Sequence record: MK327931.1
Direction: 5' to 3' (one strand)
Origin: Escherichia phage vB_EcoM_G17
Length of the DNA stretch: 64,000 bases
Positions 249 through 7,148 of this stretch are shown one piece after another. The position numbers were made by a program, and so were the translations under genes. Each line of letters opens with the position of its first letter. Position 1 is the stretch's first letter. Under the pieces are notes generated by a model. That model did not search any database. It saw only the letters and a list, made by a program, of their open reading frames with translations, and was not told where the DNA came from.

Positions 249-312
249 GCCAGTATCAAGTACTGGCATTTCTTTTTGATTAAATATAGTATAACAAATA
301 AAGGAGGGAATT
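249..312 (+). promoter_or_regulatory. Conserved intergenic cassette: terminator hairpin + T-tract + AT-rich promoter-like box + RBS
   Basis: gccagta-TCAAG-tactggc hairpin, atttctttttg, taaatatagtataa, aaggaggg 4 nt before ATG; near-identical copies at 1508, 2317 and 7084. Confidence 0.6.
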
Positions 313-1500
313 ATGTTACCTTTTGCAAGAATGATGAATTATGGGAATATTGCCCCAGTACCACTTCAAATTAAGAAAATAATCCCAACTGATTTAGATG
401 TTGTGGTTCTGTATACGGATGGTCAACTATATGCACGTGGGAATAATAGTTTTGGGAAATTCGGTAGAGGAAACAACACTGCATTAAAATCATGGACATT
501 AATTAGAGAAAACGTTAACGATTGCTGGCTTACACAAGGAACTTTATTAGTAAAAGACAATGACTCAAATTATTATTACTGTGGATATGGTAGTCATATT
601 GGTTTATCAACTAGTACTACTACGTTTTTAAGTTATAACCAATATATTCAAAATTTGTACACACAAAGTTCAAGTACTTCAATTAAACAGATGTATGGAG
701 GTACTACGTGGTTTACTTTCTTAATGGACAATAATACAATATGGAGTACAGGGTGGAACAGTGCTAGACAATTCGCCGATGGAACGGGAACTACTTATGA
801 AATAACCGATGGTTCATTTGTAAAAGCGGTCACACCTAATGTTGATATTGCACAAATACAGTCAACAAATAACTGTGTATTGTTGTTTGATAAACAAAAT
901 AATTTATATATTGGTGGTGTTACATCCGGTATAAGTTCCGCGACTACATGGACTTCATATAATCAATATACTTTATATCAACCAAATACAACATACACAA
1001 AAACGTTACAATACACAGGATGCTCAACTGGTGCAGTAAGTGCTTTAGTTGAAAATCCAAATACAGGAGCACGTCAGTTCCTTGTCGGTGGGTTAGCTAA
1101 TAATGGGGCATGGGGAAATAACACTACATCTAGCTCTGTTAATGGAGTTTTAGGAAATAACAGTACGACGTTACCACCCGGTACTTTGTATTCAATTCAT
1201 ACTGGATACCCACCACAATCTAGTATACTAATTACGAGTACTGGTGTATATGCAACTGGTTTAAATGCCAGTAGTTATGCTGGTTCATTGGGTATTGGTA
1301 CTAGTGCAACTGTTGGTAAGTTTACTGCATGTCCAATGCCTACACAAATAACATATTCTATGTATGATAAAATAAAAATATATAGAGGTTCATATCGTAC
1401 ATTTCTAACTGATATGAAAAATATATATTCAACCGGAACTTATGATGATGGTGGTCCTAGTACAACTAGATATGTACTAGATACACCCCGACAATTATAA
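313..1500 (+). CDS. RCC1-like repeat protein with conserved N-terminal leader MLPFARMMNYGNI
   Basis: 395 aa; repeats of type YARGNNSFGKFGRGNNT / GWNSARQFADGTG; S/T/N/G-rich; strong RBS. Confidence 0.85.
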   Translation: MLPFARMMNYGNIAPVPLQIKKIIPTDLDVVVLYTDGQLYARGNNSFGKFGRGNNTALKSWTLIRENVNDCWLTQGTLLVKDNDSNYYYCGYGSHIGLSTSTTTFLSYNQYIQNLYTQSSSTSIKQMYGGTTWFTFLMDNNTIWSTGWNSARQFADGTGTTYEITDGSFVKAVTPNVDIAQIQSTNNCVLLFDKQNNLYIGGVTSGISSATTWTSYNQYTLYQPNTTYTKTLQYTGCSTGAVSALVENPNTGARQFLVGGLANNGAWGNNTTSSSVNGVLGNNSTTLPPGTLYSIHTGYPPQSSILITSTGVYATGLNASSYAGSLGIGTSATVGKFTACPMPTQITYSMYDKIKIYRGSYRTFLTDMKNIYSTGTYDDGGPSTTRYVLDTPRQL

Positions 1501-1507
1501 TATAATA

Positions 1508-1572
1508 GCCAGTACTCAGTACTGGCTTTTCTTTTTGTATTAAATATATTATAATGAATAAAGGAGGGAATT
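1508..1572 (+). promoter_or_regulatory. Conserved intergenic cassette (copy 2)
   Basis: gccagtact-cag-tactggc hairpin + ttttctttttg + taaatatattataatg + aaggaggg. Confidence 0.6.
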
Positions 1573-2310
1573 ATGTTACCTTTTGGAAGAATGATTAAGT
1601 ACGGGAATGAAATTGAATATAAGCCACATGGTGAACAATTAATCACGACAATAGGAACAACACAATTTACAGTTCCTGCTGGCGTTACCGAAATATCAGT
1701 ATGTGTTATTTCGCCGGGTGGTCAACGTGGTGCTGGCGGCGGCTTATCGTGGCGTAATAATATTCCGGTTACTAGTGGTGAGTACTTAAGTGTTTCTCTT
1801 ACGCATACCAACACTACTACACCAGTTGAAAACGGTTTATATCGTGGAACTGAAAAACTATGTGTTAGCTTCACTGGTGCATATACGGTTGGTGGACTAG
1901 GTGGAAAAGCTGCTAACGCTATTAATGATGGTGGTGGTAATGGTGGCAATACTGGTGTAAGTGGTGGTGCAGTCATTGGTGGTGGTGCTGGTGGCTACAC
2001 AGGTAAAGGTGGTAACGGAGATGCAATCACTGGTGAAAATGGTGCTGGCGGCGGCGGGGGCGGTGGTACATTCTATAATACCTCGTTCATTGGTACGGGT
2101 GGTGGTACTGGTATCATTGTTCAAGGTGCTAATGGTATTGGTGGTAGCTACGGTGGTTCATATAATGGTGGTGCTGGTAGTGGTGGTGCTGGTAAGATGT
2201 ATGGTGGTGGTGGTAGTATATGGGATAATTCTTCTTATACGGCTGCTGGTGGTGGTGCTGTGCGAATAATATGGGGAAATGGGAGATATTATCCTAACAA
2301 TTCAGTATAA
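1573..2310 (+). CDS. Glycine-rich protein carrying the same N-terminal leader (MLPFGRMIKYGNE)
   Basis: 245 aa; leader then TVPAGVTEISVCVISPGG and long GGxGG tracts; internal ORFs on both strands are low-complexity artefacts. Confidence 0.8.
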   Translation: MLPFGRMIKYGNEIEYKPHGEQLITTIGTTQFTVPAGVTEISVCVISPGGQRGAGGGLSWRNNIPVTSGEYLSVSLTHTNTTTPVENGLYRGTEKLCVSFTGAYTVGGLGGKAANAINDGGGNGGNTGVSGGAVIGGGAGGYTGKGGNGDAITGENGAGGGGGGGTFYNTSFIGTGGGTGIIVQGANGIGGSYGGSYNGGAGSGGAGKMYGGGGSIWDNSSYTAAGGGAVRIIWGNGRYYPNNSV

Positions 2311-2316
2311 AATATA

Positions 2317-4707: not shown

Positions 4708-4717
4708 AGGAGGGAAT

Positions 4718-5897
4718 ATGTTACCTTTTTCTAGAATGGTTAAGTACGGGAATATAGCACCTGTATATGAATCTAGTGTGATTAAAATGCAAGCACCATC
4801 AGCTTTTACCAACAACACATTGATGATTCTGTATAAGAACGGTGATTTGTGGGGTATTGGCGGTAACAATGCTGGTATATTCGGTCTTGGAAATACAACG
4901 ACACAGACCAAATGGGGTCGCTTAATGCAAAATGTGAAAAATTTTTGGTGCACAAGGAATGCTTCATATAGCTTAGTTCAGACCAATGATAATAAATTTT
5001 ATTATGCAGGTTGGAACCTTTGGACTGGTACATCTAGTGCAGTTCAAAGTACTACATTTGTTGATTGTACGTCTTATTTTTCAGGTTTTAATGTGGATAA
5101 TATCAAGGAGATATATCCAAATGTTCGTAATATGTTTTTACTAACAAATGATAGTGTTCTTTACGCAATAGGTGATAATTCGACCTATGAGTTGGGTAGT
5201 AGTTCATCTACACTTACATCATTTACACAGGTTAATATTAATGTTAAAAAGGTTAGTTCATTTTTCAATAGTCCGACTTGGATAATTAAAAATGATAATT
5301 CAGTATGGCGATGTGGTAAAACTAGTACTGGTACATTGTTAACTGGTTCTGCTACTGATACGTTGACGATTTGGACAAAGTATAGTTTTCCTACAGGACA
5401 GTACCCCGTTGATATAATTTCATATAACAATATGTTGGGTATAGTTCTTAATGTAGATAATACTTATCCGCTATATGGTGTAGGGTCACAAAATTCACGG
5501 ACAATTAGGAAATGGTGTTCTATCTAATACTAATAAGATATCTTTAACGCCACAAAGTACTTATTTACAATTAACTAATGTTTCCGATTTTGAATTTATA
5601 CAAACATATTCACAAAATCCTAGGGGATTATTATATAGAAATGGAAGTCGTATTTTTGGAACAGGGTATAATAATTATGGACAGCTTGGTAACAATTCAT
5701 CTAATAATGCTTCAATTTTCGTCCAAGCACAATTTCCAAATTCTGTAGTTTATGATCCGTCAACATCGTTGGTTGCTGCGAATGACAATGCATTATTTGC
5801 ATATGTGAATGGGAAATTATACTACACTGGTATGTCTCCAGTAGGGACAGTTGTTGGTACATGGACTTTAACTGAATACCAATTGCCACAAATTTAA
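4718..5897 (+). pseudogene. RCC1-like leader paralogue interrupted by a +1 frameshift in an A-run (about 5489-5493)
   Basis: Frame from 4718 stops at 5527; downstream frame (5484-5897) continues ...HGQLGNGVLSNTNK...FGTGYNNYGQLGNNSS...; combined length about 393 aa matches paralogues. Confidence 0.7.
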
Positions 5898-5907
5898 GGA
5901 GAAAATT

Positions 5908-7077
5908 ATGTTACCTTTTGGAAGAATGTTAAAGTACGGAAATATTAAACCAACTCTTCCTGAAATAAAGAAATTGGATGGTAGTCAATTACATGTCGGA
6001 TTACTTTATAGTACAGGGAATATGTACATGCGTGGTTCTGGTTCGAACTATAAATTAGGTACAGGGGATGCTAGTGATGTATTAGGTGGTTGGGTACATG
6101 TACCCTATGAAGTTGATGATTTTTGGGCGTGTGTATCCGGTACATTAATAAAGACTGTTGATAATAAATTATATTGTGCAGGTCTATACATGGGTGGATA
6201 TTTTGGGGCTAGTGGTTCATATGTTAACTGGACTGAAGTAACTTCATTATTTGTAGGTATTGACGTGTCGCAAATAAAGAATATAGAATTTACGTCAGCG
6301 GGTACTTCCGGTAGTACACTAATATTGATGTTAGATGGTCGTTTATATGGGTTCGGTATGAACAGTAGATCTGAGTTAGGTGTTAATAACAAAGTTGTAT
6401 CTCCCATTCTTATAGATACTGGGGTAAGTGCAATAGGAGCACATAAGTTAGGCGGTTCATCGTTCCATTATATAAAAGGCGGTAAGTACTACAGATGTGG
6501 AACATCGGTTGGTAGTAATATTGGAAGTTCTTCTTTAACTACTTTTACGGTATTGAGTATTCCTGATAACGTTATATCTATGCAAATATTATATGACAAC
6601 GTACAGTTATTATGTTTAGGAAGTTCTGGATATAGTATCTATATGGCTGGTTCTAATGATTATGGTGGAAGAGGTGTTGGCGGTTCTACGGTTTATACTA
6701 CATTCAGGAAAATAGATCTTACAGGATTTGGTGTTGTTCCCAGTGAAATACTATTTGAAAATGCTGGAAATGGTTATGTTAATATATCAACTGATAGTAC
6801 TGGAGTATATACATGTGGTGGTGGAGCGGGTGTTAACGGTTTAGGTAGACCAACTAATGTAATACCAAGTTCACAGTTGGGAGTAGTTCAGTTCAGTACT
6901 GGAGTAGAACAATCAAATATAAGTCGTGTGTATTCACAGAGTTCGAGTTCTGTTATATATTGTATAGTCAATAATGAATTGTACTGGGCTGGTAGTAATT
7001 CATATTTTACTGATCAAACCACAAATACTGGTACACAATTTTCATTTATTAAGATGAAGGATATGCCTTCTGCTTAG
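5908..7077 (+). CDS. RCC1-like repeat protein with leader MLPFGRMLKYGNI
   Basis: 389 aa; RBS aaggag; motifs YMRGSGSNYKLGTGDAS, YGFGMNSRSELGVNN. Confidence 0.85.
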   Translation: MLPFGRMLKYGNIKPTLPEIKKLDGSQLHVGLLYSTGNMYMRGSGSNYKLGTGDASDVLGGWVHVPYEVDDFWACVSGTLIKTVDNKLYCAGLYMGGYFGASGSYVNWTEVTSLFVGIDVSQIKNIEFTSAGTSGSTLILMLDGRLYGFGMNSRSELGVNNKVVSPILIDTGVSAIGAHKLGGSSFHYIKGGKYYRCGTSVGSNIGSSSLTTFTVLSIPDNVISMQILYDNVQLLCLGSSGYSIYMAGSNDYGGRGVGGSTVYTTFRKIDLTGFGVVPSEILFENAGNGYVNISTDSTGVYTCGGGAGVNGLGRPTNVIPSSQLGVVQFSTGVEQSNISRVYSQSSSSVIYCIVNNELYWAGSNSYFTDQTTNTGTQFSFIKMKDMPSA

Positions 7078-7083
7078 ATTTTA

Positions 7084-7148
7084 TGCCAGTGCCTTGTACT
7101 GGCATTTTTTGTCCTAAATATAATAACGATTTACATTTGGAGGATACA
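7084..7148 (+). promoter_or_regulatory. Conserved intergenic cassette (copy 4, diverged)
   Basis: tgccagt-N7-actggca hairpin + tttttt + taaatataataacg + ggagg. Confidence 0.5.

What the first reader, a model, noticed from the sequence alone, without database searches (positions are those of the whole stretch)
249..7148. Four copies of a 65-bp terminator/promoter/RBS cassette flank the first leader genes, while genes 4-6 are joined only by an RBS
The cassettes at 249, 1508, 2317 and 7084 share a hairpin built from ccagtac/gtactgg half-sites, a T-tract, an AT box with a -10-like element and aaggaggg. Genes at 3565, 4718 and 5908 follow the preceding stop within 8-20 bp with only an RBS. The array therefore appears to be transcribed both as single-gene units and as an operon. 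Identical flanks are also an obvious substrate for homologous recombination and gene shuffling.
Basis: partly seen in the sequence, partly recalled or inferred. Interest (0 to 1): 0.5.

Follow-up and report, generated by a model that had tools for sequence, protein, structure and literature searches.

The report
Repeated terminator-promoter cassettes shuffle phage genes
A ~70-base "stop transcription, restart, bind ribosome" module, followed by a conserved 13-codon gene start, is repeated between the genes of a virion-protein family in a giant E. coli phage, and related phages have gained, lost and reordered whole genes at these shared boundaries, much as described for smaller T4-type phages.

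Summary
The window is Escherichia phage Sharanji (Asteriusvirus, 350 kb). The four cassettes at 243-312, 1501-1572, 2311-2380 and 7078-7148 are the last four of eight. They lie in a 13-gene + strand array of RCC1-like paralogs (gp106-gp118).

Each cassette has four parts:
- a hairpin GCCAGTAC-N3-GTACTGGC (-13 to -15.5 kcal/mol)
- a U-tract
- an invariant TAAATA box
- a Shine-Dalgarno sequence

The conserved block continues about 40 nt into the coding sequence (MLPFxRMxKYGN).

Gene bodies share about 24% amino-acid identity and no detectable DNA similarity. Standard cassettes are about 90% identical to each other.

Across eight phages, 88 units fall into 32 body types in permuted orders. 43 of 50 homology-block ends lie within -90 to +60 of a unit start.

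An Erwinia phage has the same layout with a diverged sequence.

The hairpin is very probably an intrinsic terminator. The AT box is probably a T4-type late promoter variant: the genome uses ATAAATA upstream of virion genes and encodes a gp55-like sigma factor. This is inferred, and the usual TTAAATA form is atypical.

The closest known system is the PeSL terminator-promoter cassettes of T4-like phages, so I rate this a new variant of a known kind. No transcript data exist.

The parts
1..242 (+). 3' end of array unit 6 (Sharanji gp111, RCC1-like); the window starts inside the array
   Evidence: Window 1 = record 47778 = L001 12978
243..312 (+). Cassette 1: hairpin 246-270, U-tract to 278, TTAAATA 280-286, TATAAC 290-295, SD 302-308
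   Evidence: (-14.0 kcal/mol)
313..1500 (+). Unit 7 (gp112), RCC1-like, leader MLPFARMMNYGN
1501..1572 (+). Cassette 2: hairpin 1507-1527, U-tract to 1537, TTAAATA 1540-1546, TATAAT 1550-1555, SD 1562-1568
   Evidence: (-13.4 kcal/mol)
1573..2310 (+). Unit 8 (gp113): glycine-rich protein that is not RCC1-like (phrog_4474) but has the same leader, MLPFGRMIKYGN
2311..2380 (+). Cassette 3: hairpin 2316-2338, U-tract to 2347, TTAAATA 2349-2355, TATAAT 2359-2364, SD 2371-2377
   Evidence: (-13.9 kcal/mol)
2381..3556 (+). Unit 9 (gp114), RCC1-like; its phAPEC6 ortholog, gp006, was detected in virions
3557..3564 (+). Tight junction; the SD AGGAG overlaps the stop codon; no hairpin and no TAAATA
3565..4707 (+). 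Unit 10 (gp115), RCC1-like
4693..4717 (+). Half-cassette junction: TTAAATATAATATAA, then AGGAGGG, with no hairpin or T-tract; the box lies inside the 3' end of unit 10
4718..5897 (+). Unit 11 (gp116), RCC1-like, with a +1 frameshift near 5500. The same frameshift occurs in 121Q and phAPEC6.
5898..5907 (+). Tight junction (AAGGAGA only)
5908..7077 (+). Unit 12 (gp117), RCC1-like; its phAPEC6 ortholog, gp010, was detected in virions
7078..7148 (+). Cassette 4, divergent subtype: hairpin 7083-7105 with a G.U pair, U-tract 7106-7111, CTAAATA 7114-7120, SD TGGAGGA 7138-7144
   Evidence: -15.5 kcal/mol; late-promoter PWM 9.9 bits
7149..7553 (+). Unit 13 (gp118): decayed remnant with interrupted frames. 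About 720 bp is missing relative to 121Q and E9.1.
8210..8233 (+). Orphan hairpin ATCCAGTACT-loop-AGTACTGGAT followed by T5, lying between - strand genes. In fEgEco12 the same hairpin ends an extra RCC1 unit at this position.

Best explanation
The cassettes are composite regulatory linkers in a hypervariable array of virion-associated genes of a 121Q-like jumbo phage.

How each cassette is read:
- The hairpin and U-tract act in the + sense RNA as an intrinsic terminator for the upstream unit.
- The invariant TAAATA box, about 26-31 nt upstream of the ATG, is most likely a variant T4-type late promoter read by host RNA polymerase carrying the phage's gp55-like sigma factor.
- The strong Shine-Dalgarno sequence starts translation of the next unit.

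Every unit then opens with the same roughly 13 codons (MLPFxRMxKYGN).

Units separated by a cassette can be expressed on their own. Units joined by an 8-10 nt junction are co-transcribed and probably translationally coupled.

The roughly 110-nt block (cassette + SD + leader) is nearly identical at all boundaries, whereas the gene bodies are unrelated at the DNA level. This block therefore serves as the homology patch for the phage recombination system. Whole units are inserted, deleted, replaced and reordered without disturbing the expression of neighbours, and the boundaries are kept homogeneous.

Status of each step:
- Shown: the anatomy, its conservation, and unit-wise shuffling.
- Inferred: terminator activity, promoter class and timing, and the mechanism of exchange.
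For: Identity and extent
- The window is 99.7% identical to phage Sharanji.
- The array has 13 units and 8 cassettes. The leader occurs only in these 13 genes in the 350 kb genome.

Terminator
- The stems fold at -13.4 to -15.5 kcal/mol and no shuffle folds as well.
- U-tracts follow the hairpin in all 57 distinct cassettes.
- Stem variation consists of 9 single-side changes to G.U or U.G and 2 double changes (G-C to A-U). Clear disruptions are 3 in pair 12-31. The loop-closing pair 17-26 is unpaired in 13 copies with a longer loop.
- In the Erwinia phage and in cassette 4 the + strand folds better than the - strand.

Promoter
- The first unit has no co-directional gene upstream. Apart from the SD, the box GTAAATATGATATAAT is the only element it shares with the cassettes.
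- TAAATA is invariant across three cassette subtypes and is kept in Erwinia phage Hallingskeid.
- A motif search on 25 structural-gene upstream regions returns ATAAATA.
- ATAAATA occurs 53 times against 213-295 expected, and 51% of the copies outside the array sit directly upstream of an SD + ATG + ORF.
- TTAAATA is also depleted, 99 observed against 191-295 expected.
- gp368 matches the PHROG 'sigma factor for late transcription' at E = 2e-154 and phrog_234 at 8e-18.
- Orthologs of the in-window units 9, 11 and 12 were found in phAPEC6 virions by mass spectrometry (PMC7247149; orthology).
- The late promoters of gp352 and gp405 carry the same extended box, TAAATA(T/A)AGTATA.

Shuffling
- Bodies share 24.5% amino-acid identity on average and give no blastn hit to each other. 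The seven standard cassettes are 90% identical and the leaders 86%.
- Leader codons 2, 3, 4 and 6 are identical in 12 units (P about 8e-16 given body codon usage).
- 88 units fall into 32 body clusters in permuted orders: Sharanji UFBPCIADGQJHR, 121Q CIBKADVEGJLM, UE-S1 CNSBEDAWX.
- 43 of 50 megablast block ends lie within -90 to +60 of a unit ATG, where 13.7% is expected (P about 3e-30).
- Unit B follows a tight junction in Sharanji but a full cassette in 121Q, at 99% body identity.
- A solo hairpin at 8210 marks the place where fEgEco12 carries an extra unit.
Against: - No transcript 5' or 3' ends are available for any Asteriusvirus. Literature searches found none.
- The standard box has T where the genome's late promoters have A (83%) or C (15%).
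- It scores 4.7-5.0 bits on the late-promoter matrix, below the 95th percentile of random 80-nt windows (7.1 bits). Only cassette 4 scores well, at 9.9 bits.
- Outside the array only 3 of 88 TTAAATA sites precede a gene.
- The stem is almost invariant, so covariation support is thin. Two pairs show double changes, and the covariation score is reached by 10 of 500 shuffles.
- All cassettes resemble each other, so block ends necessarily fall where the shared sequence ends. Exact crossover points cannot be placed.
- The 90% identity could reflect selection rather than homogenisation.
Confidence: 0.6

Rival explanations
1. One long late transcript. Only the region upstream of the first unit is a promoter. 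The internal hairpins are leaky attenuators or 3'-end-protecting or processing stem-loops that set the relative amounts of each mRNA segment. The AU-rich box is a translational enhancer (ribosome standby or S1 site) for the strong SD, not a promoter.
For: - The standard box, TTAAATA, scores poorly as a late promoter and is rarely used upstream of other genes.
- In Erwinia phage Hallingskeid only 2 of 9 junctions carry a cassette, so the family functions largely as operons.
- Junction type is interchangeable for the same gene body.
- The U-tracts are interrupted by a C (UUUCUUUUU).
Against: - TAAATA is invariant across three otherwise diverged cassette subtypes and across genera. It is also the element shared with the upstream region of the first unit, which must contain a promoter.
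- TTAAATA is depleted 2-3 fold genome-wide, as expected for a recognised signal.
- The same terminator-then-ATAAATA layout precedes other late genes such as gp375, gp376 and gp389.
Confidence: 0.2
2. The hairpin is primarily a DNA-level site. It would be a palindrome bound or cut by a phage protein (regulator, recombinase or nuclease) that targets unit exchange, making the cassettes actively mobile rather than passive homology patches.
For: - The arms GCCAGTAC and GTACTGGC are the halves of CAGTACTG. This is the most over-represented 8-mer of the genome: 199 sites, z = 50, present in several codon phases, and also enriched in the Erwinia phage.
- Three different hairpin contexts keep the CCAGTAC core while their loops and closing pairs differ.
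- The PeSL authors raised the same idea for their conserved stem (PMC2839356).
Against: - Stem substitutions are mostly G.U-type. These keep a + sense RNA helix but break a DNA palindrome.
- Every copy is followed by a T-tract on the + strand only.
- Exchanges also occur at junctions that have no hairpin.
- Among about 70 terminator-like hairpins genome-wide, the CCAGTAC stem is essentially confined to this array.
Confidence: 0.1
3. The repeats are leftovers of recent tandem duplication, with no function and no homogenisation.
For: Tandem duplication has been proposed as the origin of such arrays in 121Q and phAPEC6 (PMC7247149).
Against: - Bodies have diverged to about 24% amino-acid identity with no DNA similarity, while the seven standard 68-nt non-coding linkers are 90% identical.
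- A non-homologous glycine-rich gene carries the same linker and leader.
- The layout is kept in a different genus.
Confidence: 0.03
4. The box is a host sigma-70 (early) promoter, as in classical PeSLs, using the TATAAT at -23 to -18 relative to the ATG.
For: - TATAAT or TATAAC is present in the standard cassettes.
- This phage does use strong sigma-70-type promoters elsewhere.
Against: - No -35 lies at 16-18 nt. The only TTGATT/TTGTAT matches are 8-9 nt from the TATAAT.
- A start site there would leave only about a 10-14 nt leader.
- The Erwinia and variant cassettes keep TAAATA but change the downstream hexamer.
- The products are virion proteins.
Confidence: 0.07

Closest known systems
PeSL / PmSL cassettes (promoter-early or promoter-middle stem-loops) of T4-type phages RB49/phi1, T4/PST and KVP40/nt-1 (Arbiol et al. 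2010, PMC2839356; Comeau et al. 2014, PMC4122927)
   Same: - Both are roughly 70-nt intergenic composites in the same order: stem-loop terminator, promoter, Shine-Dalgarno, ATG.
- Both are repeated many times in a hyperplastic region.
- In both, indels, replacements and displacements between close relatives end at the motifs.
- Degraded 'half' copies occur in both.
- In both, crossovers map between the -10 and the ATG.
   Different: - The promoter is not sigma-70 early or MotA-middle type. There is no -35, and a late-like TAAATA core is present.
- The conserved block runs on into about 13 conserved codons.
- The units are large (about 380 aa) paralogous virion-associated genes rather than small ORFans.
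- The host phage is a 350 kb Asteriusvirus, not a member of the T4-like subfamily.
- Mini-circles have not been tested.
T4 late promoters (TATAAATA, gp55) placed after intrinsic terminators (Geiduschek and Kassavetis 2010, PMC2988020)
   Same: - Both are -10-only, AT-rich motifs with no -35.
- A gp55-like sigma factor is encoded.
- The motif is avoided elsewhere in the genome.
- Late genes may lie on either strand.
   Different: - The cassettes have TTAAATA, GTAAATA or CTAAATA rather than ATAAATA.
- No gp33 or sliding-clamp dependence is known here.
- Activity has not been measured.
T4 internal-protein (IP) locus with its N-terminal capsid-targeting sequence (my own knowledge; the IP locus is cited as an early shuffling example in PMC4122927)
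   Same: A variable set of unrelated or diverged virion-packaged proteins share a short conserved N-terminal peptide and conserved 5' regulatory flanks, and differ between close relatives.
   Different: - There is no evidence here that the MLPFxRMxKYGN leader targets proteins to the virion or is cleaved.
- The proteins here are beta-propellers of about 40 kDa.
RCC1-like paralog arrays noted in 121Q, PBECO4 and phAPEC6 (PMC5259590; PMC7247149)
   Same: It is the same gene family and locus. Multiple copies and a virion association have already been reported.
   Different: In the text I searched, those papers do not describe the intergenic cassettes, the shared leader or unit shuffling. The UE-S1 GenBank record merely auto-annotates 'terminator' and 'repeat_region' there.

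Membership tests
PeSL-type composite terminator/promoter cassette | A stem-loop immediately upstream of a promoter, ending in an SD and a start codon, within one short intergenic element | tested here: met
   The order hairpin, U-tract, TAAATA box, SD, ATG occurs within 70-72 nt. The structure is predicted and the function has not been assayed.
PeSL-type composite terminator/promoter cassette | The promoter is sigma-70-like (TTGACA-N17-TATAAT) or, for PmSL, a Mot box plus a -10 | tested here: not met
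   There is no -35 at 16-18 nt and no Mot box at a usable spacing. The core is TAAATA.
PeSL-type composite terminator/promoter cassette | Many copies concentrated in a region that varies between close relatives | tested here: met
   Sharanji has 8 copies, and there are 68 copies (57 distinct) across 8 phages. Arrays hold 5-15 units between conserved flanks.
PeSL-type composite terminator/promoter cassette | Insertions, deletions and replacements between relatives end at the motifs | tested here: met
   43 of 50 block ends lie within -90 to +60 of unit starts. Orders of the 32 body types are permuted.
PeSL-type composite terminator/promoter cassette | Recombination between neighbouring copies yields mini-circles | not testable with these tools
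   This needs inverse PCR or long-read sequencing of infected cells.
Intrinsic (Rho-independent) terminator | A G+C-containing stem of 5 or more pairs, a short loop, and a U-run directly after it on the transcribed strand | tested here: met
   Stems have 8-11 pairs, loops 3-5 nt, and 6-8 U in the next 9 nt. Fold energies are -13.4 to -15.5 kcal/mol.
Intrinsic (Rho-independent) terminator | Transcript 3' ends at the U-run | not testable with these tools
   No RNA data exist for this genus.
T4-type late promoter | A TATAAATA-like octamer at -10 with no -35 | tested here: inconclusive
   The TAAATA core is invariant. However, the standard copies carry T at the position where 98% of this genome's putative late promoters have A or C. 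PWM scores are 4.7-5.0 bits for the standard copies and 9.9 bits for cassette 4.
T4-type late promoter | The phage encodes a gp55-family late sigma factor | tested here: met
   gp368 matches phrog_12791 at E = 2.4e-154 and phrog_234 at 8.4e-18.
T4-type late promoter | Late, replication-coupled activity | not testable with these tools
   The only indirect evidence is that orthologous products are virion-associated in phAPEC6.

The most novel reading that the evidence does not exclude
The cassette and the 13-codon leader together form a dedicated plug-in system.
- The leader would be a virion-targeting or assembly signal. Any gene body placed behind it, whether an RCC1 propeller or the unrelated glycine-rich protein, would then become a virion component.
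- The uniform terminator/late-promoter/leader boundaries would let the phage population swap these components as self-contained expression units. This would be a late-gene, structural-protein counterpart of PeSL shuffling and of the T4 internal-protein locus.
- A further possibility is that the hairpin arms, which are halves of the genome's most over-represented palindrome CAGTACTG, are recognised by a phage protein that promotes or regulates the exchanges.
Probability: 0.25. Interest if true: 0.7.

Novelty: new variant of a known kind. Interest (0 to 1): 0.45.

Why it matters
If correct, modular shuffling mediated by regulatory cassettes, so far described for small early genes of T4-like phages, would extend to large virion-associated genes of 350 kb jumbo phages. 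It would also extend to a late-type promoter and to a boundary that includes coding sequence.

This would give a concrete mechanism for the most variable locus of the 121Q/PBECO4 group, which carries 5 to 15 units drawn from at least 32 body types in eight genomes. It also offers a handle on the unknown role of the RCC1-like proteins and their shared N-terminal peptide.

In practice, the boundaries are natural insertion sites for engineering virion-displayed proteins in these therapeutic-candidate phages.

Tried and rejected
- Rfam: a search of window 1-9000 at E <= 1 found nothing near any gathering score.
- Sigma-70 scan: promoter-like hits were no more frequent than in shuffles (71 against 64.5), and none fits the box.
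- Late-promoter matrix: scoring the boxes with a matrix built from 25 structural genes did not give the clean positive I expected.
Only the PHROG scan of that ORF was convincing. Pfam found nothing for it.
- Covariation: the analysis has little power because the stem hardly varies.
- IMG/VR: an exact scan for the box found only 121Q itself and one 7 kb contig, so there is no wider distribution at the sequence level.
- Literature: searches found no promoter, terminator or transcriptome data for Asteriusvirus and no mention of CAGTACTG.
- T4 middle (MotA) promoter: I considered and dropped this. GGCTT lies 18 nt from the TATAAT, which is too far.
- Programmed frameshift at 5500: I considered and dropped this because there is no slippery re-pairing. 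It is more likely a shared pseudogene.

Full report
**Origin and setting**

The first 8 kb of the window match Escherichia phage Sharanji (OR545507.1, Asteriusvirus, 350,079 bp) at 99.7% identity. A further 34 related records, from Escherichia and Salmonella jumbo phages, match with patchy coverage of 20-69%. Window position 1 is record position 47,778.

The finding lies in the 3' half of a + strand island of 13 genes, gp106-gp118. The island sits among - strand genes. Twelve of the 13 genes are RCC1-like beta-propeller proteins. One, at window 1573-2310, is an unrelated glycine-rich protein. All 13 begin with MLPFxRMxKYGN, and this peptide occurs nowhere else in the genome.

**Checking the observation**

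The hairpin pattern occurs four times in the window against 0.00 expected. It occurs four more times upstream in the phage, so 8 of the 12 junctions carry a cassette. Stop-to-ATG distances are 70-72 nt.

The in-window hairpins fold at -13.4 to -15.5 kcal/mol, and no shuffle folds as well. Each is followed by a T-rich run, an AT box containing TAAATA, and a strong SD.

Genes at 3565, 4718 and 5908 follow the previous stop by 8-10 nt.

Corrections:
- The fourth cassette is a divergent subtype.
- The conserved block extends about 40 nt into each gene.
- The junction before 4718 keeps the AT box without a hairpin.
- The gene at 4718 is frameshifted.

**The boundaries are far more conserved than the genes**

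| Segment | Identity |
|---|---|
| The seven standard 68-nt cassettes | 90% on average |
| First 39 coding nt, units 1-12 | 86% |
| Gene bodies | No blastn similarity to each other; 24.5% amino-acid identity on average |

Codons 2, 3, 4 and 6 of the leader use the same synonymous codon in 12 units, although body codon usage would give this with P about 8e-16. Conservation therefore acts on the nucleotides, not only on the peptide.

**The hairpin acts as RNA on the + strand**

I extracted 68 cassettes (57 distinct) from eight phages and aligned 36 of them. The central stem is nearly invariant.
- Nine single-side changes give G.U or U.G pairs.
- Two are double changes (G-C to A-U).
- Three disrupt pair 12-31.
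- The loop-closing pair 17-26 is unpaired in 13 copies that have a longer loop.

G.U pairs hold only in the + sense RNA.

In the more distant Erwinia phage Hallingskeid, the two cassettes fold at -18.7 and -17.3 kcal/mol on the + strand, against -10.3 and -14.9 on the - strand. In the window, cassette 4 shows the same asymmetry, at -15.5 against -11.1. Together with the U-tract on the + strand in every copy, this makes an intrinsic terminator the best reading.

**The AT box**

It is not a canonical sigma-70 promoter, because no -35 lies at a usable spacing.

Evidence that the phage uses T4-type late promoters:
- A motif search on the upstream regions of 25 structural genes (capsid, protease, sheath, baseplate and others) returns ATAAATA, the core of the T4 late promoter TATAAATA (PMC2988020).
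- The same motif was predicted for the related phages CBB and GAP32 (PMC5259590).
- ATAAATA is four to five times rarer than expected in the genome, and half of the copies outside the array lie directly upstream of a gene.
- gp368, annotated as hypothetical, is a gp55-family late sigma factor.

Evidence that the cassette box is a promoter of this kind:
- The TAAATA core is invariant across three subtypes and in the Erwinia phage.
- It is the element shared with the upstream region of the first unit, which must contain a promoter.
- Two other late genes, gp352 and gp405, carry the same extended box.
- Orthologs of in-window units were detected in phAPEC6 virions.

Evidence against:
- The standard cassettes have T where this genome's late promoters have A or C.
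- They score poorly on the matrix.
- TTAAATA rarely precedes other genes, although it is also depleted genome-wide.

I conclude that the box is probably a weak or variant late promoter, and I mark this as inferred.

**Unit-wise shuffling**

I fetched the locus from 121Q, UE-S1, phAPEC6, E9.1, slurp01, fEgEco12 and ph0011. The flanks are conserved, but arrays hold 5 to 15 units. The 88 leader-bearing units cluster into 32 body types:

| Phage | Unit order |
|---|---|
| Sharanji | U F B P C I A D G Q J H R |
| 121Q | C I B K A D V E G J L M |
| UE-S1 | C N S B E D A W X |
| phAPEC6 | I B F P A D E G J L H R |
| E9.1 | O T F B K C A D E G H M |
| fEgEco12 | C O N S Z B a E A D L b c d e |

Of the 50 ends of blocks at 90% identity or more that fall inside the array, 43 lie within -90 to +60 of a unit ATG. 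That zone is 13.7% of the array, giving P about 3e-30.

Blocks typically end 34-50 nt into the next unit, which is where the shared leader ends. At tight junctions they begin 1-15 nt before the ATG.

Three examples show that exchanges use the SD plus leader present at every unit, with cassettes adding extra homology at most of them:
- Body B (99% identical) follows a tight junction in Sharanji and a full cassette in 121Q.
- E9.1 joins the ortholog of unit 9 directly to that of unit 12 through Sharanji's 9-to-10 junction.
- slurp01 joins the unit 10 ortholog to the unit 12 ortholog through the 10-to-11 junction.

The orphan hairpin at 8210-8233, between two - strand genes, is conserved in seven phages. 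In fEgEco12 an extra RCC1 unit sits exactly there and ends with that hairpin.

**Comparison with known systems**

The closest described system is the PeSL/PmSL cassettes of T4-type phages. These are stem-loop terminator, promoter, SD and ATG composites that cluster in hyperplastic regions and mediate insertions, deletions and replacements. Their crossovers map between the -10 and the ATG, and they form mini-circles (PMC2839356, PMC4122927).

The present cassettes share the layout, the clustering and the association with breakpoints. They do not meet the promoter criterion, and they extend into coding sequence. They belong to a late, virion-associated paralog family in a jumbo phage.

The RCC1 array itself is known (PMC5259590, PMC7247149). 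I found no description of its linkers, leader or shuffling in the text I searched. The UE-S1 record only auto-annotates 'terminator' and 'repeat_region'.

**Verdict**

The feature is real and functional-looking, and comparative data support its role in recombination. It is best described as a new variant of a known kind. The transcription model remains untested.

Noticed in passing
Whole genome; 40 sites in the window, e.g. 1517, 6894, 7485, 7521, 8559, 16357, 31285, 47802, 48262, 48671: The 8-bp palindrome CAGTACTG (extended TTCAGTACTGAA) is the most over-represented 8-mer of the Sharanji genome. There are 199 sites against about 3.5 expected from base composition, with z = 50 under an order-3 model. 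172 sites lie in long ORFs, in codon phases 2, 1 and 0 (95, 63 and 14). The motif is also dense in seven related loci and reaches 1.75 per kb in Erwinia phage Hallingskeid. I found no mention in the literature. The cassette hairpin arms are its two halves.
   Followed up: partly
Window - strand, promoter starts near 16378, 31306, 47823, 48283, 48692: These are strong sigma-70-type promoters of the form TTGAC(A/T)-N9-(T)CAGTACTG-TATAAT. The palindrome abuts the -10. Some are followed by a GGGGA..TCCCC stem-loop, and one sits just upstream of a tRNA-like sequence. They look like classical PeSL-type elements in the early region.
   Followed up: partly
Outside the window: record 196052-196891 (-), L004 34275-35114: gp368, annotated 'hypothetical protein', is a gp55-family late sigma factor (phrog_12791, E = 2.4e-154). 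It lies next to the SbcD homolog, as gene 55 lies near gene 47 in T4; the T4 gene order is from my own knowledge.
   Followed up: yes
window 5480-5530: Unit 11 (gp116) has a +1 frameshift that truncates it to 269 aa. 121Q and phAPEC6 carry the identical frameshift. A 30 kDa product (phAPEC6 gp007) was reported in virions by mass spectrometry.
   Followed up: partly
window 7149-7553: The last unit (gp118) is a decayed remnant with several frame breaks. It lacks about 720 bp that are present in 121Q, E9.1 and slurp01.
   Followed up: partly
Whole genome: TAAATA is three to four times rarer than expected (229 against 640-896). ATAAATA occurs only 53 times, and half of the copies outside the array lie directly upstream of genes. 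This is the signature of an avoided promoter word.
   Followed up: yes
Outside the window: record about 34,800-40,800 (L001 1-6000), just upstream of the array: This 6 kb stretch has only five short annotated genes. The 10-kb bin that contains it (30-40 kb) has the highest CAGTACTG count in the genome, 21 sites. It may be a regulatory or non-coding region.
   Followed up: no
window 9344-11019 (- strand); repeat 10550-10679 / 10891-11020: A run of similar-sized small ORFs (104-116 aa) lies here, with a 130-nt direct repeat at 75% identity. It looks like a second tandem paralog family on the opposite strand.
   Followed up: no
L017 (Erwinia phage Hallingskeid) 4558-15578: This is a ten-unit array with the leader MIPFARMIQYGNVV. 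Its last member is annotated 'virion structural protein'. Only two internal cassettes are present, so the leader is older and more widespread than the Asteriusvirus cassette sequence.
   Followed up: partly
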